Positions 318 through 18,532 of a stretch of DNA of 64,000 nt are shown piece by piece. The first letter of the stretch is position 1. Each line of letters begins with the position of its first letter. The notes beneath the pieces are model-generated. The model had not been told where the DNA came from, ran no database searches, and worked only from the letters and a program-made list of their open reading frames with translations. A program made the translations under genes and the position numbers. The DNA is from Gammaproteobacteria bacterium. GTDB taxonomy: Bacteria; Pseudomonadota; Gammaproteobacteria; Eutrophobiales; Eutrophobiaceae. Location: positions 117,167 to 181,166 of the forward strand of contig CBDBPJ010000006.1 in NCBI GenBank assembly GCA_965208655.1, read 5' to 3'.

Positions 318-379
318 CGCAGTCGCCTGTTGTGCCGCGTCTCATCGAGTACGCCTCGGGAGTGGTTGTTTGTCATTAA

Positions 380-2100: not shown

Positions 2101-2125
2101 CGTCAACGACGGGCCGCCGCCCGGC

Positions 2126-2160
2126 CTGACAGCTACCTGACAGCTACACTGACAGCTACA
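2126..2160. repeat. Triple direct repeat CTGACAGCTAC(A)
   Basis: Seen directly; lies at the junction between two unrelated pseudogenes. Confidence 0.8.
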
Positions 2161-2224
2161 GTATTTGCCACTGCGCGCCACGTCCGGCCGCCGGGGCCTG
2201 AGCCTGAATCGCATTGCCGACCTG

Positions 2225-2494
2225 ACCAGCTACAACTCGGCCAGACGCTTCGGCCTGAACGGCAAAGGCGATATCGCCCCGGCTGCGACGCCGACCTGGT
2301 CCTGGTCGACCCCAACGAAACCTGGGTCATCCAGGCACAGGACTCCCCCTCCACCCAGGGTTATACCCCTTTTCGAAGGAACAGAACTATCCGCCCGGGT
2401 CAAACAAACCTGGCTACGCGGCCGCCTGATCTATGACGGCAATATCGTGGGCGAATCCGTGGGGAAGTTTCTAAAACGTGCCTTATTTTGCTAA
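2225..2494 (+). pseudogene. 3' fragment of dihydroorotase/allantoinase-family amidohydrolase
   Basis: NSARRFGLNGKGDIAPGCDADLVLVDP...YTPF(fs)EGTELSARVKQTWLRG; no 5' part; frameshift near 2370. Confidence 0.75.
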
Positions 2495-2515
2495 TGTGTA
2501 GATTCTGGAGTTTTA

Positions 2516-2845
2516 TCAGCTGGCGCACTCGGAGAGTTTTTCTTTGACCCACTGATTTATACTCACGCCGCTGAGTTCTGCCGCTTCGGCTACCGCTGCA
2601 TGTACTTCAGGGTCAATGCGCAACAAGAGTTTTCCCGAATAGGGTTTATTCGGAGCTTCGCCACGTTTGTCACAACTGTCGAGGTAGAATTCAACCGCAT
2701 CTTCAAATGCCTCACGAACTTCGCCTACGTTATTTCCATGGAATGTTACGATGTCCCGTATACCAGCCACGCGGCCAATGAAGCATCCGTCCTCGTCACT
2801 GTATTCGATTCGTGCCGGGTATCCTTTGTAGCGCATTGGCTTCAT
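2516..2845 (-). CDS. hicB: HicB-family antitoxin
   Basis: MRYKGYPARIEYSDED...AFEDAVEFYL...KPYSGKLLLRIDPEVH. Confidence 0.9.
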   Translation of the reverse strand: MKPMRYKGYPARIEYSDEDGCFIGRVAGIRDIVTFHGNNVGEVREAFEDAVEFYLDSCDKRGEAPNKPYSGKLLLRIDPEVHAAVAEAAELSGVSINQWVKEKLSECAS

Positions 2846-3111
2846 GGTGTTACTCCTATATGTTTGAGAAATTCCCGTGCAGCGCGTACCTGGTAGGGTT
2901 TAGCCTCCTTACGTGGATGAGGACGATGGAAATCGGCCCGCAATGTACCGTATTTGAAAGCTATTCTGGATCCTCCGCTTCTAATCACGTCACAACCCAC
3001 AGAAACAAGAAGTGTCTCTATTTGCCTCCATTTAATCTTTGAAGATACCGGGTCGGCAAAAATCGACTCGAGGACCCTACGCTGACTACTGTTCATGCCA
3101 CACGATATCAC
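2842..3111 (-). CDS. hicA: HicA-family toxin
   Basis: IKWRQIETLL...GGSRIAF...HRPHPRKEAKPYQV; overlaps hicB start. Confidence 0.9.
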   Translation of the reverse strand: MISCGMNSSQRRVLESIFADPVSSKIKWRQIETLLVSVGCDVIRSGGSRIAFKYGTLRADFHRPHPRKEAKPYQVRAAREFLKHIGVTP

Positions 3112-3303
3112 ATTGTAATATCATATACAAGTGATTTTGTCGTCAGACCTTCGCGACTGTCTGATCTATGACGGCAACATCGTGGGGGAGCCTATGGGCA
3201 AATTCCTCAGACGGCCTTATTAGAGACATTGTCGTGACTGGAAGGGCAGTCATTATTTTTCTGATTTGATGCAATCTTCTCGTACAGTGTCTCAGGCGCA
3301 ATG

Positions 3304-3590
3304 TCAGCGCCATTCGGCCAGGCAATTGTGCCGCCCTCTATAAATAAATTCCATTTCTTTCAGGGGATGAAAAACAGGTCCCTTGTCGATATATTCATGA
3401 AAGTCAACGTTGCCAGTTACGCCGTTGTCGAACTCAATGTCGTAGACGTAATTTCCCTGGTAGGTGATCTTTACAACGTCATTCATGTTCCACACGGGGG
3501 TCTTCCTATTTGAGTAGCTCTATTTTCTTGATTGTCATATTTTTCATGGCTAATTTCCAGTCCGGACATCCTTCCTCCAGGCTCATTTCA
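3304..3590 (-). pseudogene. DUF2442/DUF4160-type TA pair remnants
   Basis: MNDVVKITYQGNYVYDIEFDNGVTGNVDF...GPVFHPLK (DUF2442-like, truncated) preceded by WKLAMKNMTIKKIELLK (DUF4160 C-terminus-like). Confidence 0.6.
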
Positions 3591-3609
3591 TATTGGAAAA
3601 CACTACACT

Positions 3610-3780
3610 GCGCACATTCCCAGCGGGTATGTCTTAAACTGTTGACCTCTCTCATGGTTCCTCCTGCGTGTGACGCTTGGCGGCTCACACCGGGGGGATA
3701 CCATGAGAGTCCCGGAACTGTCAAATTGGGTTAGTCTCCCCAGCATAGTTGGGGGGTTTCCAATTTTTACTAACAGGCCT
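3610..3780 (-). mobile_element. tnpA: IS200/IS605 left end with 5' remnant of tnpA
   Basis: RBS GGAGG + MREVNSLRHTRWEC (IS200 TnpA start, truncated); subterminal hairpin CCCCCAACTATGCTGGGG. Confidence 0.65.
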
Positions 3781-3899
3781 GGCTGGCCCGATACATGCGT
3801 AAAACATCGTAGCCCACCTGTTTCTCCGAGACTTTCGCTCCCGCTACTCGCCTCAGCTTTCTTTCCTTGCAGCGCTATTTGCCCGGACCTCCCTGCCCG

Positions 3900-4342
3900 G
3901 CCGGGCTCGATTGACTCCGGCCCGCCGTCGATAATCCGGTGCAGCAGGGCCAGCACGAACCTGTCCTTGATGCGCCGGGCCAGTTGCTGTTTCAGTATGG
4001 CACGGTCAACGGAGGGAAAGTAACGGGCAATGTCCAGCTTCAATACGTAGGCGTTCTCCCGGGCGAACTGCCGGTAGCGGTCCACGGCCCGGTGCACGCC
4101 CTTGTCCTTGCGGCAGGCACAGGTGTCCGGGATGAAGCGTTTGTCCAGCAGGGGTTCCAGCACGTTCATCACGGCATGGTGCGCCACCCGGCCACGGAAC
4201 GGCGCTACGGAGATGAGCCGGGGTTTGCGCTCGTACACGGTGAACTGCCGGTAGGGGCCGGGGGCATACTCCCCGGCCACCAGTTCGCGTTGCAAGGCCA
4301 GGAGGTTCTGCTCCAGGTCCAGGCCGAATTGCGCCACGTCCG
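3900..4342 (-). pseudogene. DGR-type reverse transcriptase, internal fragment (RT0-RT3 only)
   Basis: PDVAQFGLDLEQNL...GEYAPGPYRQFTVYERKPRLISVAPFRGRVAHHA...CACRKDKGVHRA...LKLDIARYFPSVD; lacks N-terminus, GLPIGN motif and YxDD. Confidence 0.88.
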
Positions 4343-4549
4343 GTTGGCGGCGCTGAGTTGAGCGCATTTGTGCTTGCTGTAGGCGGCGTCAATGCATTCC
4401 TCCAGCACAGTCAGCAAGCCAGATTCCAGGCGCTCACCCAGGGTGAAGCGGCGGGAACGGGGGAACTTGTCCAGGACGGGTATCAGCCACTTGAGCAGAT
4501 CATGGCAGTCGTCGATGACCTGGGGCAATGCAGCATCAGCTCTTTGCAT
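4340..4549 (-). pseudogene. avd: DGR accessory variability determinant (Avd), C-terminally truncated
   Basis: MQRADAALPQVIDDCHDLLKWLIPVLDKFPRSRRFTLGERLESGLLTVLE...AAYSK...LSAANR; GGAG RBS; joined directly to RT sequence. Confidence 0.88.
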
Positions 4550-4580
4550 GGAAAATCTCTCCAAAAAATTGCGCAGCTCG

Positions 4581-4608
4581 CCGGGGACGGACTTAAGTCC
4601 GTCCCCGG
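4581..4608. repeat. Perfect 28-bp palindrome CCGGGGACGGACTTAAGTCCGTCCCCGG (variant of the REP-like att palindrome)
   Basis: Seen directly; same GGGGACGGA/TCCGTCCCC stem as 18480, 32210 and 45360. Confidence 0.85.
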
Positions 4609-4625
4609 TCAGCGAAAAATCGTGT

Positions 4626-4740
4626 CCCGGCGCAGTGCGCCGGGCGGAAAAGGGAAAAAGGGAAAGAGGGAAAGAGGGAAAAGCACAAAGGGAATCCCGG
4701 TAGAGAGTCATGTGCATATACCCGGTATAACGCCTTCGTT
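4626..4740 (-). promoter_or_regulatory. DGR cis element downstream of VR1: conserved post-stop motif, polypyrimidine tract and GC hairpin (4626-4644)
   Basis: Hairpin CCCGGCGC-AGT-GCGCCGGG; TTTCCCTC-type repeats; near-identical copy at 8643-8758. Confidence 0.65.
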
Positions 4741-6183
4741 CTACTCGTCCTGGGCCAGGCGAAAGCCCATGCCGTCGTCGCGCGGCGCGCGGCTCGTGCG
4801 ACCGGCCCTGTCGCGGTAGGCGGAACGCAGGTTCTCTGGAACGCTATACCGGGAACCGCCCCGAATCACGCGCAGGCTGCAGTACCCACTCGTCCAGGCG
4901 CTGCCATCTTTCGGCGCGCCCTTATAACTGTCATTCCAGCAATCCTGCACCCACTCCCACACGTTGCCGTGCATGTCGTGTAATCCCCAGGCATTGGCCG
5001 GGAAACTGCCTACCGGCGCTGTTCGGTCATTGTCCCACTGACTGCCGCATCTATCACAATTCGCCCGGTTGCTGCCGACCTCATTCCCCCAACTGAAGTT
5101 CGTGGTGCTGCCGGCCCGCACCGCATACTCCCATTCCGCCTCCGTCGGCAAACGGTAATTGCCGCCGGTCTTCTCGTTCAGCCAGTCGATGAAGGATTGG
5201 ACATCGTCCCAAGAGACCCTTTCGACCGCCCGGCTGTCACGACCACAGCCTGTTTCATCAACTGGCGTGTATCCATTACAGCCCCCATCCGCCACACAGG
5301 CGTCCCACTGGGCAAATGTCACCTCGTACTTGCCCAGCCTGAAGGCCGGTACCGTGACAATGCGCACCGGTTTCTCATCATCATCATAACCTTGCCCGCT
5401 CAAGTCCCCCATACGGAACGTGCCAGCAGGGATGGAGACCATTTCGCCAGCCGGTTGTCGCCCCAGCGCCGTCTGCTCCGGGGACTTTTCATGCGTAGCC
5501 TGCCGTTCACTCCCGCCGTCTTCGTCTTGTACTACTTCGACACTCAGGTCAAAATCGCTGTCCATATTACCCATTCTTCCAGAACTGATAGGGCAGACGG
5601 GATAAAAAAAGTGAACGTCTTTGCACCTATGCCGGTAGCCTGTTTCGATTTTCATGACCTCGTCGCACCATTCTATGCAACCTCTGTAGCGGATGTTCCA
5701 GCGCAGGTTAGCCCAGATATCCGGCTCCCCGGGCCTGGAACCAAGACGGCTGGCCCGCTCGTAATGGTATCTTTTCGCGGCGTCTTTTACACTCTCTGGA
5801 AACTTCATAAAATTAGTTTTTGCGCCGGAAAAGATTGTAAATGATTCACAGTGTAATATTCTTGTTCTTCCATCGAATGTCATGCCAAAAATGCCGCTCA
5901 GGAATGCGTCTACCCCAAAATGGCCTGATACGTCTGTATCGCAACGGTTTGTCACCTTGATTCCCTCGGGGTAACTGAAGAAATAATCAGATGTCAGGCT
6001 GTTTGCGTCGGAAATGCGCTCTTCGGCCCAGACAATCTCTGTGTTCACACACTCTTTCGGGTTTTGGATGTTGCCGTCCCCTTGCGGGTTAGTCCCTTGT
6101 GCATGGAGGATGGCGCAGAAAAACAACAGGCAAGCGCTGAGAGCAGACTGAAAAAGACCATTGAGTTTGTCACGTTGTGGCAT
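4741..6183 (-). CDS. DGR target 1: secreted protein with C-terminal FGE-sulfatase (CLec) domain
   Basis: Signal peptide; RLPTEAEWEYA, NAWGLHDMHGNVWEW, RGGS...GFRLAQDE*. Confidence 0.9.
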   Translation of the reverse strand: MPQRDKLNGLFQSALSACLLFFCAILHAQGTNPQGDGNIQNPKECVNTEIVWAEERISDANSLTSDYFFSYPEGIKVTNRCDTDVSGHFGVDAFLSGIFGMTFDGRTRILHCESFTIFSGAKTNFMKFPESVKDAAKRYHYERASRLGSRPGEPDIWANLRWNIRYRGCIEWCDEVMKIETGYRHRCKDVHFFYPVCPISSGRMGNMDSDFDLSVEVVQDEDGGSERQATHEKSPEQTALGRQPAGEMVSIPAGTFRMGDLSGQGYDDDEKPVRIVTVPAFRLGKYEVTFAQWDACVADGGCNGYTPVDETGCGRDSRAVERVSWDDVQSFIDWLNEKTGGNYRLPTEAEWEYAVRAGSTTNFSWGNEVGSNRANCDRCGSQWDNDRTAPVGSFPANAWGLHDMHGNVWEWVQDCWNDSYKGAPKDGSAWTSGYCSLRVIRGGSRYSVPENLRSAYRDRAGRTSRAPRDDGMGFRLAQDE

Positions 6184-6518
6184 GAGAGACCCCTGAATAG
6201 AAAAAAGCGACTACATCATCCATATATGAATTTACTCCTGCTTCACATTGTTGAAGCCCATCTATAAATGGCGCACATCCAAGTAAAGCGTTATTATGAA
6301 CAGGAACCCATAACAAGCCGTACGGAGTAGTATACAAACGCAGCCAACCCAGCCAGAACGCCCCTTGTGAAGCGCTTCTCGCGTTTTCACTCATGACCAG
6401 ATTGATCTTGATTCACAAGGCTCGGAGACGAGGAACATCTGGAAAGGGAAAAACAAAAAAGTCAACAGGGAATCCCCGTAGAAAGTCATGTTCAAATCTC
6501 GGTTATGGTGGCTTCGTG

Positions 6519-7349
6519 CTACTCGTCCTGGGCGAGGCGAAAGCCGATGTTGTCGTAGCGGTTCAAGCGGACGGCACTGGAACGGAAGGCGGAACGCAGG
6601 TTCTGCGGGTCTTCGAAGTAGGACCAGGAACCGCCCCGAACCACGCGCAGGGCACACCTCTCACTCGTCCAGGCACTACCGTCCGTCGGCGCGCCTTCAT
6701 AACTGCCATTCCAGCAATCCTGCACCCACTCCGACACGTTGCCGTGCATGTCATGCAGCCCCCAGGCATTGGCAGGGAAACTGCCCACCGGCGCGGTGTA
6801 TCTCCACGAGTCGCCACAATCATCATTGTCACAATTCGCCCGGTTGCTGCCGATGTCATTCCCCCAACTGTACTTCGTGGTACTGCCGGCCCTGGCCGCA
6901 TATTCCCATTCCGCCTCTGCCGGCAAACGGAAACCCTCATCGGTTTTGCTGTTCAGCCAGTCAATGAAAGATTGGGCGTCGTCCCAGTTGACATTGATGA
7001 CCGGCCGGTCGCCACGGCCATGGCTTCTACCACCAGAAGTGTGGCCCTCATACGGCACGTAACCGTTACAGCCCCCGTCCGCCACACAGGTGTCCCACTG
7101 GGCAAACGTTACCTCGTGTTTGCCAAGCTTGAAGGCCGGCACCGTCACGGTATGAACGGGCTTCTCATCATCATACCCATCCCCGCTCAAGCCCCCCATG
7201 TGGAACGTGCCGGCGGGGATGGAAACCATCTCGCCTGCCAGCTCCTGCTCCAGCACCGCCTGCTGCCAGGCATCTTGTTTCTTGCTGAAGCTGCAACCAG
7301 CAATGACGATGGTGGAACACAACAGATAAACAACGTTGACTGATTTCAT
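6519..7349 (-). CDS. DGR target 2: lipoprotein with FGE-sulfatase (CLec) domain
   Basis: Start MKSVNVVYLLCSTIVIAGC (lipobox); same CLec core; ends RLNRYDNIGFRLAQDE*. Confidence 0.9.
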   Translation of the reverse strand: MKSVNVVYLLCSTIVIAGCSFSKKQDAWQQAVLEQELAGEMVSIPAGTFHMGGLSGDGYDDEKPVHTVTVPAFKLGKHEVTFAQWDTCVADGGCNGYVPYEGHTSGGRSHGRGDRPVINVNWDDAQSFIDWLNSKTDEGFRLPAEAEWEYAARAGSTTKYSWGNDIGSNRANCDNDDCGDSWRYTAPVGSFPANAWGLHDMHGNVSEWVQDCWNGSYEGAPTDGSAWTSERCALRVVRGGSWSYFEDPQNLRSAFRSSAVRLNRYDNIGFRLAQDE

Positions 7350-7359
7350 TCTTCTCTCT

Positions 7360-8619
7360 CTACTCGTCCTGGGCCAGGCGAAAGCCAAGAATGTAGTCGC
7401 GGTACGAGCGGGCGTACCTGAAGCGGTCGGCGGAATGCAGCCCCCCCGGATTGTTGCCCCAGGAACCGCCCCGAAACACGCGAATGCCACAGTCCCCACT
7501 CGTCCAGGCACTGCCGTCTGACGGCGCGCCCTCATAACTCTCATTGTAACAATCCTGCACCCACTCCGACACGTTGCCGTGCATGTCGTGCAAACCCCAT
7601 GCATTGGCAGGAAAACTACCTGTCGGCGCAGGCAGGTAATAATCAGCCCAGGGACTGCCGCATCCATTACAGTTCGCCCGGTAGCTGCCGACGTCGTCTC
7701 CCCAACTGTACTTCGTTTTGCTGCCGGCACGCGCCGCATATTCCCACTCCGCCTCGGTAGGCAAGCGGTAATTCCCGCCGGTCTTCTCGTTCAGCCAGTC
7801 AATAAAGGATTGGGCATCGTCCCAGGAGACACCGTTGACCGGGAGGTCGTCACGGCTCCAGTCCCAGCCCCTGCCTGCATCATCATCATACGGCGTGTAA
7901 CCATTACAACCCCCGTCCGCCACACAGGCGTCCCACTGGGCAAATGTCACCTCGTATTTGCCTAACTTGAAGGCCAGCACCGCGACGCTGTGGACGGGTT
8001 GCTCCCAACCATAACCCTCCCCGCTCAAGTCCCCCATGCGGAACGTGCCGGCAGGGATAGAGACCATGGGGACCATTTCGCCGACGTTGACGTCTTCTTC
8101 CATTATTATCAGCAGTTCGATCTGGTAGTCGACGCGGCGACCAATGGCGGAAGCTGAGTCGAATGCCACATATTCCGGATACCCATACTCGGCATTGTAG
8201 CGCGGGTCTACAAGGGAATAATGAGACCTGTCTATGGTGATGAACAGAGAATCAATGGAGCGAACGCCACCTACAGAAACCGGCGCTCCGTCATCTTCGT
8301 ACACAGCCGAATGCACAAGCCCTTTTCGAATGTCAACGATCATAGACCGTCCTGCATGATCGCATAAACAGTTGTTCATTTGGAATCTCATTCGGTAGTT
8401 CGTGATCCCGTGCGACCTCCATCTCTCCAGATTTGCCTCCATCTCTTCATACTCAGGCACATGAATATACGTAGCGTAGCCTACAGAAAGAATCAGCAGT
8501 CCGATGATGCTGACTGCCCATTTCAAAGTGACGATGCCACCTCTACCGTTGCGTATATCCATTATTTGAACCATGCATTCGCCGATGACTTGGGGCAAGC
8601 GTGTGTTTGTGGTTTGCAT
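7360..8619 (-). CDS. DGR target 3: membrane-anchored DUF6174-like domain + FGE-sulfatase (CLec) domain
   Basis: TM segment; WRSHGITNY...CLC...SIDSLF...YGYP (DUF6174-like); CLec core; start uncertain (in-frame avd-derived ATG at 8619 or ATG near 8562). Confidence 0.85.
   Translation of the reverse strand: MQTTNTRLPQVIGECMVQIMDIRNGRGGIVTLKWAVSIIGLLILSVGYATYIHVPEYEEMEANLERWRSHGITNYRMRFQMNNCLCDHAGRSMIVDIRKGLVHSAVYEDDGAPVSVGGVRSIDSLFITIDRSHYSLVDPRYNAEYGYPEYVAFDSASAIGRRVDYQIELLIIMEEDVNVGEMVPMVSIPAGTFRMGDLSGEGYGWEQPVHSVAVLAFKLGKYEVTFAQWDACVADGGCNGYTPYDDDAGRGWDWSRDDLPVNGVSWDDAQSFIDWLNEKTGGNYRLPTEAEWEYAARAGSKTKYSWGDDVGSYRANCNGCGSPWADYYLPAPTGSFPANAWGLHDMHGNVSEWVQDCYNESYEGAPSDGSAWTSGDCGIRVFRGGSWGNNPGGLHSADRFRYARSYRDYILGFRLAQDE
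8572..8619 (-). pseudogene. avd: Second avd 5' remnant, in frame with target 3
   Basis: MQTTNTRLPQVIGEC aligns with MQRADAALPQVIDDC; same position after the hairpin as the first avd; GGAG RBS. Confidence 0.7.
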
Positions 8620-8758
8620 AAGTGTGCTCCTGAAAAATCGCAGCCCGGCGCAGTGCGCCGGGCGGAAAAGGGAAAAAGGGAAAGAGGGAAAGAGGGAAAA
8701 GCACAAAGGGAATCCCGGTAGAGAGTCATGTGCATATACCCGGTATAACGCCTTCGTT

Positions 8759-9228
8759 CTACTCGTCCTGGGCCAGGCGAAAGCCCATGCCGTCGTCGCG
8801 CGGCGCGCGGCTCGTGCGACCGGCCCTGTCGCGGTAGGCGGAACGCAGGTTCTCTGGAACGCTATACCGGGAACCGCCCCGAATCACGCGCAGGCTGCAG
8901 TCCCCACTCGTCAAGGCACTGCCATCTTTCGGCGCGCCCTTATAACTGTCATTCCAGCAATCCTGCACCCACTCCCACACGTTGCCGTGCATGTCATGCA
9001 ACCCCCAGGCATTGGCCGGGAAACTGCCTACCGGCGCAGTAGTGTCCCACGAGTCGCCACAATCATCATTATCACAGTTCGCCCGGTTGCTGCCGAGGTC
9101 GTTCCCCCAACTGTACCTCGTCTTGCTGCCGGCCCGGGCCGCATACTCCCATTCGGCCTCCGTCGGCAAACGGTAATTGCCGCCGGTCTTCTCGTTCAGC
9201 CAATCGATAAAGGATTGGGCATCGTCCG
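8759..9228 (-). pseudogene. DGR target 4: 5'-truncated FGE-sulfatase gene, VR identical to target 1
   Basis: Begins at DDAQSFIDWL; 3' end RVIRGGSRYSVPENLRSAYRDRAGRTSRAPRDDGMGFRLAQDE is the same as target 1. Confidence 0.85.
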
Positions 9229-9261
9229 AAATCCAGACCATCAGGGGACAATGCCACTAGC

Positions 9262-9347
9262 AGTCGGCCGGCGTCGTTTCCCCTTGCCGGCCTTGTAGTA
9301 CGCCGTATACAGGTTGTCCATGACCACCACCTCCCGATGCGGCGCAT
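9262..9347 (-). pseudogene. DGR RT N-terminal remnant
   Basis: ATG at 9347: MRRIG(fs)EVVVMDNLYTAYYKAGKGKRRRP, matching the typical DGR RT N-terminus. Confidence 0.75.
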
Positions 9348-9464
9348 GGCTCAGCCAGGCGCCGATTGGCAGCGATGACATCCTGTCACTGTGTCTGTCC
9401 CGGCTTACCGTGGAAGGGATACCCGGATGACATACTCTTTGCCTGCCATACCGTACAACAGTTT

Positions 9465-9491
9465 GAATTAAGTGTTGCGTCCCCGGAATTC
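9465..9491. repeat. REP/MITE-like end GAATTAAGTGTTGCGTCCCCGGAATTC
   Basis: Similar to the inverted pair at 43749-43887. Confidence 0.6.
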
Positions 9492-9641
9492 TCTGGAATT
9501 CCCTTCTGCGGTTCCTGTTTTGCAATCTCAGCATTAAAGCGGGTTTTCGCCTTCGTCACAGTCTAATTCGCGGGCTGTTTCAACGAATCGCTTGTGCTGA
9601 ATGCTTTTGTCTTTTGTAGTCATTGAATGTCAGCCCACCCA

Positions 9642-10109
9642 TCATAATGGCGGACATTCGCGACTTATGATTTCACGCTGACTGCAATTCGGAGAGTATT
9701 GTTGCCCAGGGTTATAAAAAGGGATGTCTGGACGATAATCTGGTTTTAATGTCTCATCATGTTCACACGATGGGTATGTGATTGGGACCTCTCCTGCTGG
9801 AGTATGTTTGACTACATCCTTCATGATGCATCTTTCATAGGGACCGCACGTTACATATTCACAAGATTTTGAATTTTGGTCTTGTGCAAAAGCACTTTTC
9901 AGACCGCTAAAAAAACCGTATATTATTAGTATCGCAACGGCAAAGATGACGATTCCGGCTATTGCATCTTTATTGCCCTCTGAATCATTTATACCTGTGT
10001 CGTTATCTACATAATCCCAATTTGTTTTGGTTTCTGAGTTGGTCTGTGATGCTCTTTCCGCACTTTCCAGTTCTGCCTCCCACTTTGCAAGTTTATGTAT
10101 GATGTTCAT
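9642..10109 (-). CDS. Hypothetical membrane protein with Cys-rich C-terminus
   Basis: RBS GGGGG; one TM segment; low GC. Confidence 0.55.
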   Translation of the reverse strand: MNIIHKLAKWEAELESAERASQTNSETKTNWDYVDNDTGINDSEGNKDAIAGIVIFAVAILIIYGFFSGLKSAFAQDQNSKSCEYVTCGPYERCIMKDVVKHTPAGEVPITYPSCEHDETLKPDYRPDIPFYNPGQQYSPNCSQREIISRECPPL

Positions 10110-10235
10110 TGTCTAACCCCCTGTATTACGTAGTTAAGTAGCTTTCTGTTTTTCGTATTTTGTGCATTGTGCGACCTGACCCCGTTTGCTTGTTCCTAAT
10201 CCGCGATTAGTCCCTTATCAGCCACACTACAGAAT

Positions 10236-11543
10236 TCATTTCTCATTGAGCGACTTGTTTTGCGGTTTCGCTTCCTCACTTTCGGTATTTTCTGCTTCAT
10301 TACGATCTTCTCTCTTCTTGGGATAAGGCTTCTTTTTGGTTACTTTGTGTTCAAACTCGTAAGTGAAGAATAAGATATCAGCCCTGAATTTGTTTGTTGT
10401 CGTAGTCTCTGTAGTTTCCGCCCGACGATTAGGACGATAAACTTTCACCGCCGCTTTCTCACCATACAGTGACCAACAATTGTAAACTATTCCGCCTGTG
10501 GATTGGTCGGGTTCAGTCGAACGTACGCATTTCCACTCAGGCATTACATTTCGGTTTTTTATTGTTGGGAACCCGCCGAATTTAAATGCACCAGAATGAT
10601 AGTTGACTAATATGTAAATATATTTAGGTCCGCGCGTGTTTTGAGGAAAAGGCAAAGAAGGTTCATTGGTGGGAACACTACTGGAGTAAAAAACATTTGC
10701 CCCCATAAGCAATTCATGACCACAATAAGAAGGAATATAATTGGGATAGGGATATACCAGACAACTTAATGACGTATTTTCACCATAGATTGATCTACAG
10801 GCGTAATCAATCGGCCCGTCGATATGCGACAGGTCAACAACTTTTTCACACTTCCACTCAACAGGATTATTACTTCCTTGTTCATCGCAACCAACTGGCT
10901 CAAGTATTAATTGTGAATCATCACTCCTCCCCAAAGTTTCAACCCCGTCAGTTTTTGTGTTCAAATATCCTTGAAGTGAGACAGTAAGAGCCCTCTCAAT
11001 TTGAGTATCGATAGCTGGGTTTAGTTCTTTCAAATCATCGGTCACATCATCGAAAATGGGATGGAGATCGAGAACGGATGCGCATTGGAATTGGTATCCA
11101 CTGGTGTTATCCTTCGAAATCTCGGCATTGCCTTGGGCAACAATGCTCGGCGCAAGTAGGACGAGATGGCATAGCGCGAGCAGCCGACCGAGCATTACCT
11201 GAGCAAAACACCTATGCGTAGATGTAACGATCCTGCATGAGGCAAGCGCTTTTTGTGTAGGAATTTTCGCAAGAAAATTGCATCTACTCAAAGGTACCGA
11301 CGTACAGTTCATCACGCTTCTGCAACGCATGGCGTATCCGCCCCCTTTCATCGAGGATGAGTCGGGTTTTGGAAAGTTGGTTGAGGAAGGCACGGCAGAC
11401 TTATCTTCAGTTGGCGTGTTCTTCATCATCACAATTCTCCAAAGCATACTTGCCATGCTTTCAGTAGCAAAAACCCAATGTTCAAGAAGGTTGTGCAGCA
11501 TAAAAGTTGTTATGTATGAGAGGGAATCCTGATAGACAGCCAT
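10236..11543 (-). CDS. Hypothetical secreted protein (true start probably downstream, near MLGRLLAL)
   Basis: Long low-GC ORF; signal-like segment; internal repeat EWKC...Y.C.S.YGE. Confidence 0.55.
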   Translation of the reverse strand: MAVYQDSLSYITTFMLHNLLEHWVFATESMASMLWRIVMMKNTPTEDKSAVPSSTNFPKPDSSSMKGGGYAMRCRSVMNCTSVPLSRCNFLAKIPTQKALASCRIVTSTHRCFAQVMLGRLLALCHLVLLAPSIVAQGNAEISKDNTSGYQFQCASVLDLHPIFDDVTDDLKELNPAIDTQIERALTVSLQGYLNTKTDGVETLGRSDDSQLILEPVGCDEQGSNNPVEWKCEKVVDLSHIDGPIDYACRSIYGENTSLSCLVYPYPNYIPSYCGHELLMGANVFYSSSVPTNEPSLPFPQNTRGPKYIYILVNYHSGAFKFGGFPTIKNRNVMPEWKCVRSTEPDQSTGGIVYNCWSLYGEKAAVKVYRPNRRAETTETTTTNKFRADILFFTYEFEHKVTKKKPYPKKREDRNEAENTESEEAKPQNKSLNEK

Positions 11544-11572
11544 GTGCAGTTATCAGCTGTCACGCCTTCGTT

Positions 11573-13435
11573 CTACTCGTCCTGGGCCAGACGGAAGCCA
11601 AGGTAATTGTGGCGGCTCGAGCGGTCGCGCCAGTAGCGGTTGGCGGAACGCAGGGTCCCCGGAGAATCGGCCCAGCCGCCCCAGGAGCCGCCCCGAAACA
11701 CGCGTAGGCTGCACTCCTCACTCGTCCAGGCGCTGCCATCCGTCGGAGCGCCCTCATAACTGTTATTCCAGCAATCCTGTACCCACTCCCACACGTTGCC
11801 GTGCATGTCATGCAACCCCCAGGCATTGGCAGGGAAACTGCCCACTGGCGCAGTCTGTCTATCGTCCCACTGACTACCGCATCCATCACAGTTCGCCAAG
11901 TTGTGCCCTATGTCATCCCCCCAACTGTACTCCGTGGTGCTACCGGCACGGGCCGCATACTCCCACTCCGCTTCCGTCGGCAAGCGATAATTGCCGCCGG
12001 TCTTGCTGTTCAGCCAGTCAATGAAGGATTGGACATCGTCCCAGGAGACATAGATGACCGGGAGGCTGCCGCGGCCCCAGCCTTTATCATCCGGCGTGTA
12101 ACCGCCACAACCCCCGTCCGCCACACAGGCGTCCCACTGGGCAAACGTCACTTCGTGCTTGCCCAGCTGGAAGGCCGGCACCGTGACGCTGTGGACGGGT
12201 GTCTCATCACCATTACCCGCCCCGCTCAAATCCCCCATGCGGAAGATGCCGCCGGGGATGGCGACCATTTCACCGGCGTATTGCCTTGCTTCCGCTTCGG
12301 CTTGCTCTCTTTTTTTCTGCATCTCCGTCCAGTCTGCTAAAGTCATGCCCCCCAGTAACGCCAGCAATGCCGATGATACGCCGTTCTCCCGCGCCGTGTT
12401 AGCATCGCCGTACCTCGCTTTCGCCACTTCCACCGGCGTCTTGCCCTTTGGCCCCTTAATAGTGACATCAGCGCCGGCCTTCATCAGCAGTTCGATTATT
12501 TCCGTGTGCCCGTGCGCCGCTGCCATGAACAGCGCCGTGGCGCCGTCCGGGGCGCGAACGTCCATGTCCGCCTGCGCCTCCAGCAACTCTGAGACCAGCA
12601 CCAGATAACCCTTGTTCACCGTATGCATCAGCGCGGTCCAGCCGCGGCTATCGCGTGCGTCCAGGTCTACGCCGGCAGTAATAGCCGCTTTCAGGACCTC
12701 GATATCGCCCGACTGCACGGCATTGTGCAGGGCATCCGGTGAGACCGGGGGAGGGACGTTCGCTGCTGGTGGGGCGGGGGTTTGCGTTGTCCCGGCAGTT
12801 GTTGTTTCGCTTCCGGTTTGCGCAACGCCCTGTTGTTCTGCGGCTGCTTGTATGGCGCGCAGTGATTGTGGAGTCAGTGTATCCGTTTGCGGCAGCCCCA
12901 TATCACGCAGGAACGCCTGGTAAGCCGTCTTCGTGCTTGAGGTCCAGACGCCATCCGCCGGGCCGGGCTGGTAGCCGAGAGCGGCCAACAGGGACTGTGC
13001 CGCGCGTATCGCCTGCGGGGGTGGTTGGCCTGTGTCCTGTGCAGAGGATGATTCTTCGGTCTGCGCGATGGCCCCGCCGGGCTGCCAGGCCGCGGCTTTC
13101 TGTTGGGCTGTCGCCACCTGCGCCGGCGTCATCTGCGCGGCCAGTGCATCCCGCTCTTCCAGGGCCGCCGCCTCACCGCGGCTGGCTGCCAGGTTGAGCC
13201 ACTTGTGCGCCTCGACGTAGTCCTGCACCACACCCAGGCCCTGGCGGTACAGCCGCCCGAGTTCGAGCATCGCCCGGCGATCGCCGGCATCGCCCGCATC
13301 TCGCCAGTGGGACAGCGCCTCGTCCACGTTGCCTGCGTCCCAGGCCTGCTGGCCGGCCTCGAAATCCGCGCTTGCATGGGGTACTGCAATGAGCGCGAAT
13401 GTCAGGATTGCCGTTCGGATGATAGTTATGTGCAT
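11573..13435 (-). CDS. DGR target 5: signal peptide + Sel1 repeat + peptidoglycan-binding + ankyrin repeats + FGE-sulfatase (CLec)
   Basis: LGRLYRQGLGVVQDYVEAHKWLNLAA (Sel1); LAALGYQPGPADG (PG_binding_1); GWTALM/GATALFMAA/GKTPV (ankyrin); CLec core ending GFRLAQDE*. Confidence 0.9.
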   Translation of the reverse strand: MHITIIRTAILTFALIAVPHASADFEAGQQAWDAGNVDEALSHWRDAGDAGDRRAMLELGRLYRQGLGVVQDYVEAHKWLNLAASRGEAAALEERDALAAQMTPAQVATAQQKAAAWQPGGAIAQTEESSSAQDTGQPPPQAIRAAQSLLAALGYQPGPADGVWTSSTKTAYQAFLRDMGLPQTDTLTPQSLRAIQAAAEQQGVAQTGSETTTAGTTQTPAPPAANVPPPVSPDALHNAVQSGDIEVLKAAITAGVDLDARDSRGWTALMHTVNKGYLVLVSELLEAQADMDVRAPDGATALFMAAAHGHTEIIELLMKAGADVTIKGPKGKTPVEVAKARYGDANTARENGVSSALLALLGGMTLADWTEMQKKREQAEAEARQYAGEMVAIPGGIFRMGDLSGAGNGDETPVHSVTVPAFQLGKHEVTFAQWDACVADGGCGGYTPDDKGWGRGSLPVIYVSWDDVQSFIDWLNSKTGGNYRLPTEAEWEYAARAGSTTEYSWGDDIGHNLANCDGCGSQWDDRQTAPVGSFPANAWGLHDMHGNVWEWVQDCWNNSYEGAPTDGSAWTSEECSLRVFRGGSWGGWADSPGTLRSANRYWRDRSSRHNYLGFRLAQDE

Positions 13436-13485
13436 AGTCCAATCCCGTATTTTATTCATGTGTGGCCAATATCGGGCAGCGCACA

Positions 13486-14910
13486 CTACTCCGCCCTTTT
13501 CCAATATGTCGTGCCGTCCGGTCTCGTGCACTTTGTCGGGCGGCCGCAATCCTCACCCCTCCCATTATGGCAATAACGGAATTCACACGTATCGTACCCG
13601 CCACCGGACGTTGTGCCGGTCGTTCCGCCCCCACCGTATGTCCGGTTCACCTGATCGGCAAGACCTCTGAGCGATTCTGCCGTGTTCTGTAACGCCTGCC
13701 GCCGGTATTCCGCTTGCTGGCGCTGTTCCGCAAGGTCGTACTCCCGCTGACGCTGACGCTCTCGCTCGTCGAGTCGCCGTCGTTCCTCCCGCCTCGCCAA
13801 CCGCTCACGTTCCTCCTCCTCTTCCAGACGCGCCTGGCGTTCGCGTTCTTCCTCCTCCAACCGCAGCCGCGCCGCCTCCTGCGCTTCCAGGTCGTTCAAC
13901 GCGGACAGGTAGTCGCCGGGGACAGTGGCATCGTCGTAGGATGCCTGGTCCGTCTCTTCATTCGGACACTCGTTGCGCTGCATCCGCGCCCGCATCAGCT
14001 CGTACAGGCCGTGGCGCGTCGTGACCTCGTACACGCCCCAGCAGTCAGCGGCAAAGACGCCGACCCGCGCCGCGTCCCGGTCTGCCTCGCTGTAACGGTC
14101 ATCGGAGTTATCCCAGCCCGACCAGCCGTCGTCTTCGGTCCACTTCCCGGCGACCCAGTCGGCTGCCCCGGTCCGTGGGGAGTCCGCAACCTTACCGGCG
14201 GCGGGACTCGCTGCGCCTGCGTCTCCGAAACATTCGGGCGGCAGGGTCTCTGGGTCCACGACGCCGTAGCAGTGCGGGTGGGCGTCCTGTTTGGCCATGA
14301 CCCATTGCTCGAAGTCCCAGGAAGAGTCGGCAGGCTTAGCGCCGGCAGCGCCAGGTTCCTGACCGGTTTTTCCGGTCAGCGTGGCGGGGGACATCGGCCG
14401 GGGCTCAAGGTTGGATGCCGCGAATGTTGTCTTGGTCGGCGTCGGCAAGGGGTCCCCCTCCAGCAGCGAGGCATCGCTCCAGCCGCCGTTCTTATCACCT
14501 CCGTCGGTCGCCAGCGCCGCACGCGCATCGGTGAGACGCTCCCCGGTCCCGCTGACAAAACGTTTAATCTTCTGCTTTGCTGATTTCAACCTATTGGCAA
14601 TTGCTTGCGGGGCTTCCAAGACCGGAAACGCCCGCTTAACCAGCTTCCCCGGCGTCTTTGCCACTTCCCCCATGAGCTCGGAGACCGTTTCATCATCGCC
14701 TTCGATGAAGGCGCTGACCATCTCACCAAAGAGGTCGGTGGTCTCCGCCAGGGTCTCCTTCAGGGAATGGCCGGCGCCGGCGGTTCCCACGCCGCCGCTC
14801 AATCCGGCCCCGGCGGGGAGTGCGCACAACAGCAGGGCGCCCGCTACCAGAGTCACGGCGAGGCGCAAGGTGCGCGGGGGACGGCTTTTCAGGCAGTTCA
14901 TATCTATCAT
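13486..14910 (-). CDS. Hypothetical secreted protein with coiled-coil and Cys-rich C-terminus
   Basis: Signal peptide; E/R-rich coil; probably operonic with target 5. Confidence 0.7.
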   Translation of the reverse strand: MIDMNCLKSRPPRTLRLAVTLVAGALLLCALPAGAGLSGGVGTAGAGHSLKETLAETTDLFGEMVSAFIEGDDETVSELMGEVAKTPGKLVKRAFPVLEAPQAIANRLKSAKQKIKRFVSGTGERLTDARAALATDGGDKNGGWSDASLLEGDPLPTPTKTTFAASNLEPRPMSPATLTGKTGQEPGAAGAKPADSSWDFEQWVMAKQDAHPHCYGVVDPETLPPECFGDAGAASPAAGKVADSPRTGAADWVAGKWTEDDGWSGWDNSDDRYSEADRDAARVGVFAADCWGVYEVTTRHGLYELMRARMQRNECPNEETDQASYDDATVPGDYLSALNDLEAQEAARLRLEEEERERQARLEEEEERERLARREERRRLDERERQRQREYDLAEQRQQAEYRRQALQNTAESLRGLADQVNRTYGGGGTTGTTSGGGYDTCEFRYCHNGRGEDCGRPTKCTRPDGTTYWKRAE

Positions 14911-14948
14911 CAGTGTGTCCTCCGTTGCCGGTGTGGGTTATAACTCCC

Positions 14949-15884
14949 TCATTCAAGCAACGCTACCAGCATAAGGCGGCGCAGCGCGCAGATGTCGGTG
15001 TTGAGGCCGCACACGGCCAGCACGTAGGTGTCGCCGTCAGTAGTGAGGGAGCCGATGAGCAGTCGGCCTTGCCCCTCTGCCTCAAGTGCCATGTCGAGGG
15101 TGAGTTCAGTAGCAAAGCCGGCGGGCAGGGTTGCGAGCGCGGCGGCGGTGTCCGCATCGGTGTCGGGCGCCGCGGCTGTCAACACGGCCGGGTCGCGTGC
15201 GACAAGGGCATCCTCAATCGCGACCAGAACAGGCCGCAGCCATGGCCGCGCCTCGTCGGTCCACTGCGCCCGTTGCGTCAGGTTCCAGGCCAGGCGAGGC
15301 AGGGCCGCGCGCAGGGCCGCCGCGGCATCAGCAAACGTGGCGGCAGCGCGGCCGGGCTTGGTCGCACCAGGCGGGTGGGCCAGGCGGAAGGCGTCCAGGC
15401 GTGCCGCCGTGGTTCGGGACAGCGCCCCGACCGCGCCGTCCTGAGCCGATATCCAGGCCGGTTCGACCGCTACCTCAGCATCCGGCTCTGCCAGCCGCTC
15501 GCCGGGCAGGGCGCGGGCCGAGACCACGCGATAACCCGCTTCCTCCCGCGTCCACAGGGTGAGCACGGCGATATCGAGCAACGGGTCGTAGTAGAGCGCG
15601 GCCGGGCCGGTTGAGCGCAGGCGACCGAGCTTGACGATGGCGTTTGCAAAGGACGGACTCCACAACGCGGGCAGCGTTTCGCGGGCGACCATCCCCGCAC
15701 CGGGCAGGGCGGACAATACCTCCAATGCCCGCTCATCACCCGTCACAACCGCAGAACGCAAGGCAAGCGCCGAGGCGGCAAATTGGCGGGCGGGCGACTC
15801 CTCGGCTGAGTGCGCAGGCGCTGCAAGGAGCATGACCGCTACAGCAACCGGCAGGAGAAATCCCCGGAAGCGCTTATTCATCAT
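14949..15884 (-). CDS. Hypothetical secreted protein
   Basis: MMNKRFRGFLLPVAVAVMLLAAPAHSA signal peptide; 311-aa ORF. Confidence 0.7.
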   Translation of the reverse strand: MMNKRFRGFLLPVAVAVMLLAAPAHSAEESPARQFAASALALRSAVVTGDERALEVLSALPGAGMVARETLPALWSPSFANAIVKLGRLRSTGPAALYYDPLLDIAVLTLWTREEAGYRVVSARALPGERLAEPDAEVAVEPAWISAQDGAVGALSRTTAARLDAFRLAHPPGATKPGRAAATFADAAAALRAALPRLAWNLTQRAQWTDEARPWLRPVLVAIEDALVARDPAVLTAAAPDTDADTAAALATLPAGFATELTLDMALEAEGQGRLLIGSLTTDGDTYVLAVCGLNTDICALRRLMLVALLE

Positions 15885-18504: not shown

Positions 18505-18532
18505 TTTTGCCCAGGGGAGCCGAGGTGATACG

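What the first reader, a model, noticed from the sequence alone, without database searches (positions are those of the whole stretch)
4741..13435. Five-target DGR array with an adenine-mutagenesis signature but no template repeat
Seen: five tandem CLec genes end in GFRLAQDE*. Between SA and GF the codons are T1/T4 TAC cgc GAC AGG GCC GGT cgc ACG AGC cgc [+9 nt] GAC GAC GGC ATG; T2 TTC cgt TCC AGT GCC GTC cgc TTG AAC cgc TAC GAC AAC ATC; T3 GAC cgc TTC AGG TAC GCC cgc TCG TAC cgc GAC TAC ATT CTT; T5 AAC cgc TAC TGG CGC GAC cgc TCG AGC cgc CAC AAT TAC CTT. Arg codons are fixed and variable codons are mostly NNC/NNT. Established: this is the footprint of DGR A-to-N mutagenesis of AAC/AAT codons. 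Inferred TR is approximately GCC AAC CGC AAC AGG AAC AAC CGC ACG AAC CGC AAC AAC AAC ATT GGC TTT CGC, which I could not find in the window. The array is either a frozen repertoire or diversified in trans.
Basis: partly seen in the sequence, partly recalled or inferred. Interest (0 to 1): 0.8.

Follow-up and report, generated by a model that had tools for sequence, protein, structure and literature searches.

The report
Dead DGR with frozen target genes
Five lectin-fold surface-protein genes carry the scars of a retroelement that once rewrote their binding tips, but the retroelement beside them is now broken and its template deleted, so the variants are fixed; this kind of decay is already known.

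Summary
One of the five, T4, is only a 5'-truncated fragment.

Wreckage of the diversity-generating retroelement (DGR) lies directly downstream of T1:
- an avd fragment (codons 1-70);
- an RT fragment joined to it (codons ~32-175);
- 77 nt that follow the TR in relatives.

Two same-genus genomes (G001, G018) carry the intact cassette, ordered target-avd-RT-TR. Aligned to them, the window lacks 240 nt (avd 3' end plus RT 5' end) and 730 nt (RT catalytic core plus the whole TR). More avd and RT scraps flank T4.

Judged against the relatives' real TRs:
- The window VRs differ at 14-17 of 27 TR-adenine columns but only 5-7 of 74 other columns.
- The VRs also differ from each other at non-adenine sites (10.8% pairwise).
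- They have three different lengths.
- T1 and T4 have identical VRs.

The 98%-complete assembly holds no TR, and its only other RT is a retron. Verdict: a decayed DGR with a frozen repertoire that now drifts and recombines. RT-less arrays with the same imprint occur in at least two other genus genomes. This is a new member of a known kind, of moderate interest.

The parts
4741..6183 (-). T1: 480-aa protein with an N-terminal signal-like segment and a C-terminal FGE-sulfatase/CLec domain
   Evidence: ORF. PF03781 E 9.9e-55 over residues 246-477. The signal-like reading is by eye from the sequence.
4750..4869 (-). VR of T1, 120 nt. It carries a 9-nt in-frame insertion relative to the 111-nt TR of relatives. 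The conserved GGSW Trp codon reads CGG.
   Evidence: Compared with the relatives' TRs, 14 of 27 A columns and 7 of 74 non-A columns differ.
4550..4740 (-). Conserved target-avd intergenic region: a GGGATTCCC motif, a polypyrimidine run, and inverted repeats at 4626-4644 and 4581-4608
   Evidence: Aligns to L013 ~15040-15168. Motif coordinates. Folding z-scores are not significant.
4340..4549 (-). avd fragment, codons 1-70 of 117
   Evidence: PF22296 bAvd, profile 7-60 of 107, 32.8 bits, below the cut-off of 40. 86% identical to G001 Avd residues 1-70.
3897..4343 (-). RT fragment, codons ~32-175/180 of 360, joined out of frame to the avd fragment. It lacks IGNLTSQ (residue 199 in G001's RT) and YVDD (residue 231).
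   Evidence: 83% nt identity to L013 15619-16065. RVT_1 profile 8-95 of 205, 27.2 bits. Motif positions.
3823..3898 (-). DNA that lies just downstream of the TR in relatives. It marks the far edge of the 730-nt deletion that removed the RT core and the TR.
   Evidence: 86% identity to L013 16796-16872 and 79% to L014 16460-16543.
3614..3773 (-). End fragment of an IS200/IS605-like element abutting the remnant. Its ORF stub begins MREVNSLRHTRWEC.
   Evidence: Copies at 88-95% identity in G018 and G020. Translation. The IS200 assignment is recalled, not tested.
6519..7349 (-). T2: 276-aa lipoprotein-like CLec protein starting MKSVN..., 10 nt after the T3 stop
   Evidence: PF03781 E 1.1e-61.
6528..6644 (-). 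VR of T2, 117 nt, with a 6-nt in-frame insertion
   Evidence: 15 of 27 A columns and 6 of 74 non-A columns differ from the relatives' TRs.
7360..8619 (-). T3: CLec protein with a DUF6174 domain. Its frame is fused in frame to the first 15 codons of an avd gene (ATG at 8619).
   Evidence: PF03781 E 1.1e-56 and PF19671 E 2.1e-14. avd residues 1-15 match at 8575-8619 (E 0.10, weak on its own).
7369..7479 (-). VR of T3, 111 nt, the same length as the relatives' TR
   Evidence: 15 of 27 A columns and 6 of 74 non-A columns differ.
8759..9241 (-). T4': 5'-truncated CLec fragment and mosaic. The middle is T2-like; the 3' 370 nt plus intergenic region are T1-like, with 3 differences.
   Evidence: PF03781 profile 99-254 of 255. 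Sliding identities.
8768..8887 (-). VR of T4', identical to the VR of T1
9262..9372 (-). Second remnant: avd codons ~68-74 (ANRRLAE) followed by RT codons 1-33 with an internal frameshift, joined directly to T4'
   Evidence: RT residues 10-35 match at 9256-9333, E 2.3e-4. 79% nt identity to L013 15556-15621. Sequence read.
9642..11543 (-). Two ORFs (155 and 435 aa) with no Pfam match in low-GC DNA, lying between T5 and the second remnant
   Evidence: GC 0.476 for 10001-12000.
11573..13549 (-). T5: 658-aa protein with Sel1, PG_binding_1 and ankyrin domains plus a CLec domain. The gene and its two upstream neighbours are syntenic in G018 and G020.
11582..11701 (-). VR of T5, 120 nt, with a 9-nt in-frame insertion at the same site as T2's
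   Evidence: 17 of 27 A columns and 5 of 74 non-A columns differ.

Best explanation
This is the wreck of a diversity-generating retroelement (DGR) together with the variable-protein genes it once served.

How it worked (inferred from intact relatives). An avd-RT-TR cassette of the kind still intact in two same-genus genomes reverse-transcribed a ~111-nt template repeat. It copied adenines unfaithfully and wrote the copy into the 3' ends (VRs) of CLec-fold genes. This randomised about 11 mostly AAC-coded positions of the ligand-binding surface.

What happened in this genome (shown). The cassette was destroyed:
- avd is cut at codon 70;
- the RT is in two pieces that lack the catalytic core;
- a 730-nt deletion took out the TR.

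Current state (inferred from the pattern). No further homing has taken place. The four full-length genes (T1, T2, T3, T5) now encode fixed, mutually different binding tips on secreted or envelope proteins. They change only by ordinary mutation, in-frame indels and recombination between paralogs, as in the T1/T4' tract.

What remains inference. The order of the rearrangements and the proteins' present function (ligand binding at the cell surface) are not shown.
For: 1. Machinery remnants are in place.
- The bAvd and RVT_1 fragments lie immediately downstream of T1.
- They are 86% and 84% identical at the amino-acid level to the Avd and RT of G001.

2. An intact reference exists.
- G001 (L013) and G018 (L014) carry target, a 117-aa avd, a 360-aa RT, then the TR.
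- Their own VRs differ from their TR at 19/29, 17/29 and 13/29 A positions, but at only 1/82, 0/82 and 1/82 non-A positions.

3. The deletions are mapped.
- Window 4979-4340, 4343-3897 and 3898-3823 align to L013 14809-15378, 15619-16065 and 16796-16872.
- So 240 nt and 730 nt are missing, and the second gap includes the TR at L013 16596-16715.

4. The A-specific imprint is present.
- The window VRs differ from columns where both TRs agree at 14-17 of 27 A columns and 5-7 of 74 non-A columns (Fisher p 1.5e-5 to 1.5e-8).
- Columns variable among T1, T2, T3 and T5 number 24/27 for A and 15/74 for non-A (p 3.7e-10).
- Within codon positions 1 and 2 alone, pairwise differences are 70% and 57% at A columns but 2.8% and 7.2% at non-A columns.

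5. There are signs of being frozen.
- Non-A pairwise difference is 10.8% (48/444), against about 0-1% in the active relatives.
- VR lengths are 120, 117, 111, 120 and 120 nt.
- T1 and T4' have identical VRs, with 3 differences just upstream.

6. No replacement machinery was found.
- tblastn with the full G001 Avd and RT finds only the fragments and a retron RT in the 4.19-Mb, 98.16%-complete assembly.
- That RT is retron type II-A with an NDT partner.
- No TR is present.
- No close RT was found in IMG/VR; 10 loci were returned, all at 32% identity or less.

7. Weak support from sequencing runs.
- The organism's contigs in 3 runs (2 samples, 1 study) match all the VRs they cover with 0 other letters.
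- None of the 8 variant places listed falls inside a VR.
Against: - The assembly is a 10-contig genome at 98% completeness. An unbinned phage or plasmid carrying a compatible DGR cannot be excluded.
- The runs were available only as contigs, which drop rare variants. The best holder may be the source sample, so population-level VR heterogeneity was not really tested.
- The window's own TR is lost. Non-A differences were therefore judged against relatives' TRs, which themselves differ from each other at 10 of 111 columns. Some of the 'drift' may be TR divergence.
- The RT fragment shows no stop codon, and its branch-specific changes are still biased to third positions (6/7/14 at positions 1/2/3). 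The RT may have been inactivated later than the VR drift suggests, or some VRs may have escaped homing before the RT died.
- All five VRs keep the 3' segment shared with the TR (GGCTT.CG.CT.GCCCAG). They might still be addressable by an incoming compatible element.
Confidence: 0.88

Rival explanations
1. The array is still diversified in trans by an intact DGR located elsewhere: in an assembly gap, on an unbinned plasmid or prophage, or on an infecting phage.
For: - All five VRs keep the conserved 3' segment shared with the relatives' TRs.
- T1, T2, T4 and T5 keep part of the conserved downstream intergenic sequence.
- Remote targets are known for DGRs (passages of PMC7517822).
- The genome is not closed: 10 contigs, 98.16% complete.
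Against: - No DGR RT, Avd or TR lies elsewhere in the assembly.
- The VRs differ pairwise at 10.8% of non-A columns and have three lengths (111, 117 and 120 nt). No single TR could serve them, whereas the active relatives' VRs match their TR at 81-82 of 82 non-A positions.
- T1 and T4' have identical VRs.
- The closest viral RTs are at 32% identity or less.
Confidence: 0.05
2. The pattern has nothing to do with a DGR. The paralogs diverged by ordinary mutation under positive selection on ligand-contact residues.
For: - The paralogs are old and interleave with those of other species in a CLec-domain tree (32 domains, supports of 0.22-0.75 at the window's nodes).
- Binding-site residues of lectin folds are expected to be the most variable.
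Against: - Variation tracks the adenines of real TRs, not just codon position. At positions 1-2, differences are 57-70% at A columns but 3-7% at non-A columns.
- Third letters of the former AAC codons stay C in 32 of 36 cases, while third positions elsewhere in the domain differ at 31%.
- avd and RT fragments sit next to the genes.
Confidence: 0.02
3. After loss of the DGR, the array works as a cassette system. Recombination or gene conversion between paralogs, including the promoterless fragment T4', shuffles ready-made VRs into expressed genes. This adds to the frozen-repertoire reading and does not replace it.
For: - T4' is a mosaic. It is T2-like at 55/60 positions in one stretch where T1 matches only 36/60. 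It is then T1-like with 3 differences in ~370 nt, including the whole VR and 130 nt of intergenic DNA.
- T3 is fused in frame to 15 avd codons.
- Large tandem arrays exist in RT-less relatives.
Against: - One conversion or duplication tract is what any tandem gene family shows.
- No evidence of ongoing switching was found. The inter-paralog joints in contigs come from conserved CLec sequence at low stringency in a metagenome and cannot be used.
- No recombination-promoting element was found.
Confidence: 0.12

Closest known systems
Intact DGR of two same-genus genomes (G001 = L013, G018 = L014): CLec target, avd, RT, TR
   Same: - Same avd (86% amino-acid identity over 70 residues) and same RT (83-85% nt identity).
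- Same CLec target type ending GFRLAQD(E/K).
- Same intergenic region and same DNA after the TR.
   Different: - There the avd (117 aa), RT (360 aa, with IGNLTSQ and YVDD) and 111-nt TR are whole, and the VRs match the TR at all but 0-1 of 82 non-A positions.
- Here avd and RT are fragments, the TR is deleted, and the VRs have drifted.
Bordetella phage BPP-1 DGR (mtd-avd-TR-brt), the prototype (recalled; described in the introduction passages of PMC5758913 seen)
   Same: A CLec-fold target with a C-terminal VR, an Avd accessory protein, an RT, and adenine-specific mutagenesis of mostly AAC codons.
   Different: - Chromosomal, not phage-borne.
- In this lineage the TR lies after the RT, not before it.
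- Targets are of the FGE-sulfatase subtype.
- The element here is dead.
Treponema denticola variable protein TvpA (PDB 2Y3C), an FGE-type CLec DGR target
   Same: The T5 CLec domain matches it by sequence (E 2.4e-13, residues 106-242). It has the same fold subtype with a C-terminal variable surface.
   Different: By sequence, PvdO (5HHA, E 1.8e-44) and formylglycine-generating enzymes are closer. No structure was predicted here.
Degraded DGR loci and orphan CLec paralogs in cyanobacteria (PMC7517822, passages read) and in Thiohalocapsa PB-PSB1 (bioRxiv 10.1101/2023.09.22.558884, passages read)
   Same: - Intragenomic duplication of CLec targets grafted to varied N-terminal domains.
- Paralogs with remnant TR-VR homology but no RT.
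- Cassettes degraded next to IS200/IS605 or MITE-like elements.
- Strains in which the RT is deleted.
   Different: - A different bacterial lineage (Gammaproteobacteria by the title of G001's record).
- Here the breakpoints can be mapped to the base against intact relatives.
- The orphan targets are clustered in one array.
Multi-target DGRs, e.g. eight tandem targets in a Stenotrophomonas sp. (PMC5758913, passage read)
   Same: Several CLec targets side by side next to one cassette.
   Different: Those are reported with an intact RT and TR. Here the cassette is destroyed.

Membership tests
Diversity-generating retroelement (functional) | Intact DGR-clade reverse transcriptase with catalytic motifs (YxDD, and the [I/L]GxxxSQ motif; the latter is recalled as the DGR hallmark) | tested here: not met
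   Only two pieces remain: codons 1-33 at 9262-9346 and codons ~32-175 at 3897-4343. IGNLTSQ (residue 199) and YVDD (residue 231) of the G001 RT fall in the deleted part. There is no other DGR RT in the assembly.
Diversity-generating retroelement (functional) | A template repeat homologous to the VR, differing from it mainly at adenines | tested here: not met
   No TR is present in the window or the assembly. The TR's expected place falls inside a 730-nt deletion.
Diversity-generating retroelement (functional) | Accessory variability determinant (Avd) or an equivalent | tested here: not met
   Only fragments remain: codons 1-70, 1-15 and ~68-74. The best bAvd score is 32.8 bits, below the cut-off of 40.
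Diversity-generating retroelement (relic, i.e. former target array) | VRs whose differences fall at TR adenines | tested here: met
   Using the TRs of G001 and G018 as proxies, 14-17 of 27 A columns differ against 5-7 of 74 non-A columns. 24/27 A columns are variable against 15/74 non-A columns. The third letter is C in 32 of 36 former AAC codons.
Diversity-generating retroelement (relic, i.e. former target array) | Target protein with a C-type-lectin/FGE fold and the VR at its C-terminus | tested here: met
   PF03781 at E 7.8e-39 to 1.1e-61 for all five genes, with the VR in the last ~40 codons.
Diversity-generating retroelement (relic, i.e. former target array) | Homing signals: IMH at the VR 3' end plus a downstream hairpin or cruciform | tested here: inconclusive
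   The 3' segment shared by TR and VR is kept in all five. No significant, conserved hairpin was found in the 116 nt around and after the VR end; z-scores range from -1.35 to +1.88 in 7 sequences. Function is not testable here.
Retron (the only other RT in the genome) | RT matching retron models with a neighbouring effector | tested here: met
   C1:946251 RT matches RT_II-A at 1.6e-122, and the upstream ORF matches NDT_II-A at 1.6e-68. It is unrelated to the array.

The most novel reading that the evidence does not exclude
In this genus the retroelement is repeatedly lost while its products are kept and multiplied. Tandem arrays of up to 13 or more DGR-imprinted CLec genes persist in genomes with no DGR RT at all. 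G006 has no RT; G020 has only a retron. These arrays would serve as a hard-wired 'germline' repertoire that is reshuffled by recombination between members, including silent fragments such as T4'. That would be a shift from retroelement-driven hypermutation to cassette-based variation.
Probability: 0.12. Interest if true: 0.7.

Novelty: new member of a known kind. Interest (0 to 1): 0.4.

Why it matters
The locus is a well-dated fossil. Intact cassettes survive in sister genomes, so each loss can be mapped to the base, and the VRs can be read as a record of the last round of hypermutation plus later drift.

It shows what happens to DGR targets after the engine dies:
- They are kept as intact genes with distinct binding tips.
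- They acquire in-frame indels.
- They recombine with each other.

It also warns annotators that VR-like CLec arrays without an RT or TR are relics, not evidence for a new trans-acting mechanism.

The genus-wide pattern makes the persistence of frozen repertoires testable by comparative genomics:
- An intact DGR of this type was found in 2 of the 22 other genus genomes searched.
- RT-less arrays with the same imprint were confirmed in G006 and G020.

The basic phenomenon, DGR degeneration with orphan paralogs, is already in print (PMC7517822; bioRxiv 10.1101/2023.09.22.558884).

Tried and rejected
- Rfam. An E-value scan of window 1-16000 gave only a chance snoRNA hit (E 0.74). No structured RNA family lies at the remnant.
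- Downstream hairpin. Folding 116 nt around and after the VR end for 4 window VRs and 3 relatives' VRs gave no significant or conserved stem. This says nothing firm about homing competence.
- Sequencing runs. Only Logan contigs of 3 runs (1 study, 2 samples) were available. Many 'joints' between paralogs were listed, but they sit in conserved CLec sequence at 85% likeness in a metagenome with other CLec-bearing organisms, so I do not use them. VR1 is not covered in run X3 in the pieces shown.
- Date of the freeze. I tried comparing T5 with its syntenic counterpart in G020. That gene's CLec domain and VR are different, so there is no shared frozen VR. The G018 counterpart lacks the VR end.
- CLec-domain tree. 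The first attempt with treekit was killed at 60 s. FastTree gave weak supports of 0.22-0.75 at the window's nodes, so it shows only that the four paralogs are not a tight in-genome clade.
- RT-fragment substitutions. The branch counts of 6/7/14 are too few to date the inactivation.
- Order of rearrangements. The RT pieces break at the same place (L013 15621 and 15619), and the avd pieces break at about codon 68-70. This fits either one cassette split by a 4.9-kb duplicative insertion or two tandem cassettes broken at a CCGGCCGG hotspot. I could not decide between them.
- Earlier notes of this scan. None concerns this locus.
- Supplementary tables of the DGR surveys were not available. They may list comparable relic arrays.

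Full report
**What is there**

Five ORFs on the minus strand between 4741 and 13549 end in GFRLAQDE*. All match Pfam FGE-sulfatase (PF03781), the C-type-lectin-like fold of many DGR targets, with E-values from 7.8e-39 to 1.1e-61.
- T1 (4741-6183) has a signal-like N-terminus.
- T2 (6519-7349) starts MKSVN..., 10 nt after the T3 stop, and looks like a lipoprotein.
- T3 (7360-8619) carries DUF6174.
- T5 (11573-13549) carries Sel1, PG_binding_1 and ankyrin repeats.
- T4 (8759-9241) is only a 160-aa, 5'-truncated fragment covering profile positions 99-254 of 255.

Two unrelated ORFs without a Pfam match, in low-GC DNA (0.476), separate T4 from T5.

**The machinery is present but broken**

Reading on from the T1 stop codon, these follow in order:
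- A conserved intergenic region.
- The first 70 codons of an avd gene (4549-4340). The bAvd profile match covers positions 7-60 of 107, at 32.8 bits.
- Out of frame, about 145 codons of a reverse transcriptase (4343-3897). The RVT_1 match covers positions 8-95 of 205.

**Intact relatives and where the TR went**

I searched 41 genomes (the window's own genome plus 40 relatives) with the RT fragment. Two same-genus genomes held close matches: G001 at 84% and G018 at 83%, both in 361-aa open frames.

Their loci (L013, L014) show the intact cassette:
- a CLec target;
- a 117-aa avd (bAvd at 63 bits);
- a 360-aa RT;
- overlapping the RT stop, a 111-nt template repeat that translates as ...RGGSWNN(K/N)(P/A)RNLRSANRNRN..R.NRNNN(I/N)GFRLAQ.

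Their own VRs differ from it at 19/29, 17/29 and 13/29 adenines, and at 1/82, 0/82 and 1/82 other positions. These are textbook active-looking DGRs.

Aligned to L013, the window matches in three blocks:

| L013 | Window |
|---|---|
| 14809-15378 | 4979-4340 |
| 15619-16065 | 4343-3897 |
| 16796-16872 | 3898-3823 |

Two stretches are therefore missing:
- 240 nt, covering avd codons 71-117 and RT codons 1-31;
- 730 nt, covering the RT from about residue 176 onward, including IGNLTSQ at 199 and YVDD at 231, and the whole TR (L013 16596-16715).

An IS200/IS605-like end fragment lies about 50 nt beyond the last homologous stretch (3614-3773; copies at 88-95% in relatives). The IS assignment is recalled, not tested.

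**More scraps around T4'**

- Just upstream of T4' lie avd codons ~68-74 and RT codons 1-33, with a frameshift (9372-9262).
- Just downstream of T4' lie avd codons 1-15, now fused in frame to T3 (8619-8575).
- The two RT pieces break at the same place (L013 15621 and 15619). The avd pieces break at about codon 68-70.

This fits either one cassette split by a 4.9-kb duplicative insertion or two tandem cassettes broken at a CCGGCCGG hotspot. I cannot tell which.

**Is the VR pattern really a DGR imprint?**

I used the two relatives' TRs as stand-ins for the lost one.
- Each window VR differs at 14-17 of the 27 columns that are A in both TRs, and at 5-7 of the 74 columns that are the same non-A base (Fisher p 1.5e-5 to 1.5e-8).
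- Among T1, T2, T3 and T5, 24 of 27 A columns vary, against 15 of 74 non-A columns (p 3.7e-10).
- The contrast holds within codon positions. At position 1 the pairwise differences are 70% (A columns) against 2.8% (non-A); at position 2 they are 57% against 7.2%.
- The third letter of the nine former AAC codons is C in 32 of 36 cases.
- The rest of the CLec domain shows the opposite profile, 15.5/15.9/31.1% at positions 1/2/3, against 41/39/25% in the VR core.

**Frozen or still diversified?**

Several observations point to frozen.
- No TR is present anywhere in the 4.19-Mb, 98.16%-complete assembly.
- No Avd or DGR RT is present beyond the fragments.
- The only other RT is a type II-A retron with its NDT partner.
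- The VRs differ from one another at 10.8% of non-A columns (48/444), and at 17.7% of non-A third positions. This is less than the 31.1% at third positions upstream, as expected if a shared TR once homogenised them. It is far more than the ~0-1% seen in active relatives.
- VR lengths are 120, 117, 111, 120 and 120 nt, owing to in-frame insertions at two sites. No single 111-nt TR can have written them in their present form.
- T1 and T4' share an identical VR inside a ~370-nt tract with only 3 differences. The 5' half of T4' is T2-like, so recombination among paralogs has occurred and no homing has taken place since.
- The organism's contigs in three public runs (two samples, one study) are identical over every VR they cover, and no listed variant falls in a VR. 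Contigs hide rare variants, and the samples may include the source.
- The closest RTs in IMG/VR are at 32% identity or less.

Points against:
- The genome is not closed.
- The RT fragment shows no stop and still a third-position bias in its private changes (6/7/14), so the RT's death may be more recent than the drift of some VRs.
- All VRs keep the 3' segment shared with the TR.

**The wider picture in the genus**

- CLec domains of this type occur in 21 of 23 genus genomes, counting the window's own genome. Large tandem arrays are present in G006 (22 matches), G010 (18) and G020 (14).
- A Pfam RVT_1 search of G006, G020, G010, G008 and G017 found an RT in 1 of 5. That one, in G020, is a type I-C RT-Toprim retron.
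- The 13 VRs of the G006 array and the 6 of the G020 array carry the same imprint. They differ from the TRs at 59% and 50% of A cells, against 9.8% and 7.7% of non-A cells.
- T5 and its two upstream genes are syntenic in G018 and G020. G020 has an avd scrap about 7 kb from the T5 counterpart.
- A FastTree of 32 CLec domains without their VRs does not group the window's four genes together. Support is weak, 0.22-0.75.

DGR loss with retention of imprinted targets therefore seems recurrent in this lineage. The number of independent losses was not determined.

**Comparison with what is known**

Passages read in three papers cover the same ground:
- PMC5758913: about 15% of DGRs have several targets, up to eight in tandem.
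- PMC7517822: cyanobacterial CLec paralogs, one with remnant TR-VR homology and no RT; a degraded cassette next to transposases; IS200/IS605 elements near variable-protein genes.
- bioRxiv 10.1101/2023.09.22.558884: duplication and transposon- or MITE-driven degeneration of DGR loci, and strains with the RT deleted.

I read only the passages returned by term searches, not whole papers. Supplementary tables could not be opened. By sequence, the closest solved structures to the T5 domain are PvdO (5HHA, E 1.8e-44) and formylglycine-generating enzymes. The DGR target TvpA (2Y3C) matches at E 2.4e-13.

**Verdict**

- The missing TR is explained: it was deleted together with the RT core from a cassette whose wreckage is still next to T1.
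- The array is a frozen, slowly drifting and recombining set of former DGR targets (confidence 0.88).
- It fails the membership test for a functional DGR (no RT, no TR, no whole Avd). It passes as a DGR relic.
- This is a new member of a known kind. Interest is 0.4, mainly for the base-level reconstruction and for the genus-wide RT-less arrays.

Noticed in passing
window 2516-3111 (-): A HicA toxin / HicB antitoxin pair (PF07927 E 9.6e-13; PF05534 E 2.6e-20). It is flanked by a 65-nt direct repeat at 2414-2478 and 3149-3213 with 77% identity.
   Followed up: partly
window 3566-3606, 230-303, ~18100-18194, ~18481-18507: Short interspersed repeats of 25-75 nt, with tens of copies at 77-100% identity in G001, G018, G020 and G006. 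They look REP- or MITE-like and were not characterised.
   Followed up: no
G000:C1:944751-948365 (L001): A type II-A retron: a 311-aa RT (RT_II-A, 1.6e-122) preceded by a 330-aa NDT_II-A effector (1.6e-68).
   Followed up: partly
L013 ~14950-14965 (G001): The DGR-adjacent target of G001 has one extra base inside its VR relative to the TR. Its reading frame therefore ends early, and the GFRLAQDK end is out of frame. This is either an assembly error or a real frameshift in an otherwise intact DGR.
   Followed up: no
L066 4676-4788 (G020): One VR-like copy in the RT-less G020 array is followed by TR-type 3' sequence (GCCCAG then TCTCCGCC) in place of the usual GACGAGTAG. It may be a relic TR, although its A positions are no longer all A.
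   Followed up: no
L068 8143-8361 and 18236-18448 (G010): Two avd-like stretches (38-42% identical to G001 Avd over 71-73 residues) lie inside a large CLec array in a genome where no RVT_1 match was found. This may be another, more divergent relic.
   Followed up: no
L014 11576-14830 (G018): In G018 the target is followed by a degenerate avd copy. Two inserted repeat-rich genes (520 and 405 aa) then precede the intact avd-RT-TR. Partial cassette duplication therefore also occurs where the DGR is alive.
   Followed up: partly
L013 2928-5492 and 13095-14978 (G001): The G001 targets are Ser/Thr protein kinase-CLec fusions (Pkinase E 1e-31 for the first). They lie among FHA- and PP2C-like genes as judged by eye. 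The window's targets have quite different N-terminal parts.
   Followed up: no
window 18461-20939 (+): Phenylacetate catabolism genes: PaaA/PaaC family, PaaD, and a ferredoxin-reductase-like PaaE. They are ordinary and unrelated to the array.
   Followed up: no
window 4861-4863 and 8879-8881 (-): In T1 and T4' the Trp codon of the conserved GGSW motif reads CGG (Arg). This is a change at a non-adenine scaffold position that all other copies keep.
   Followed up: no
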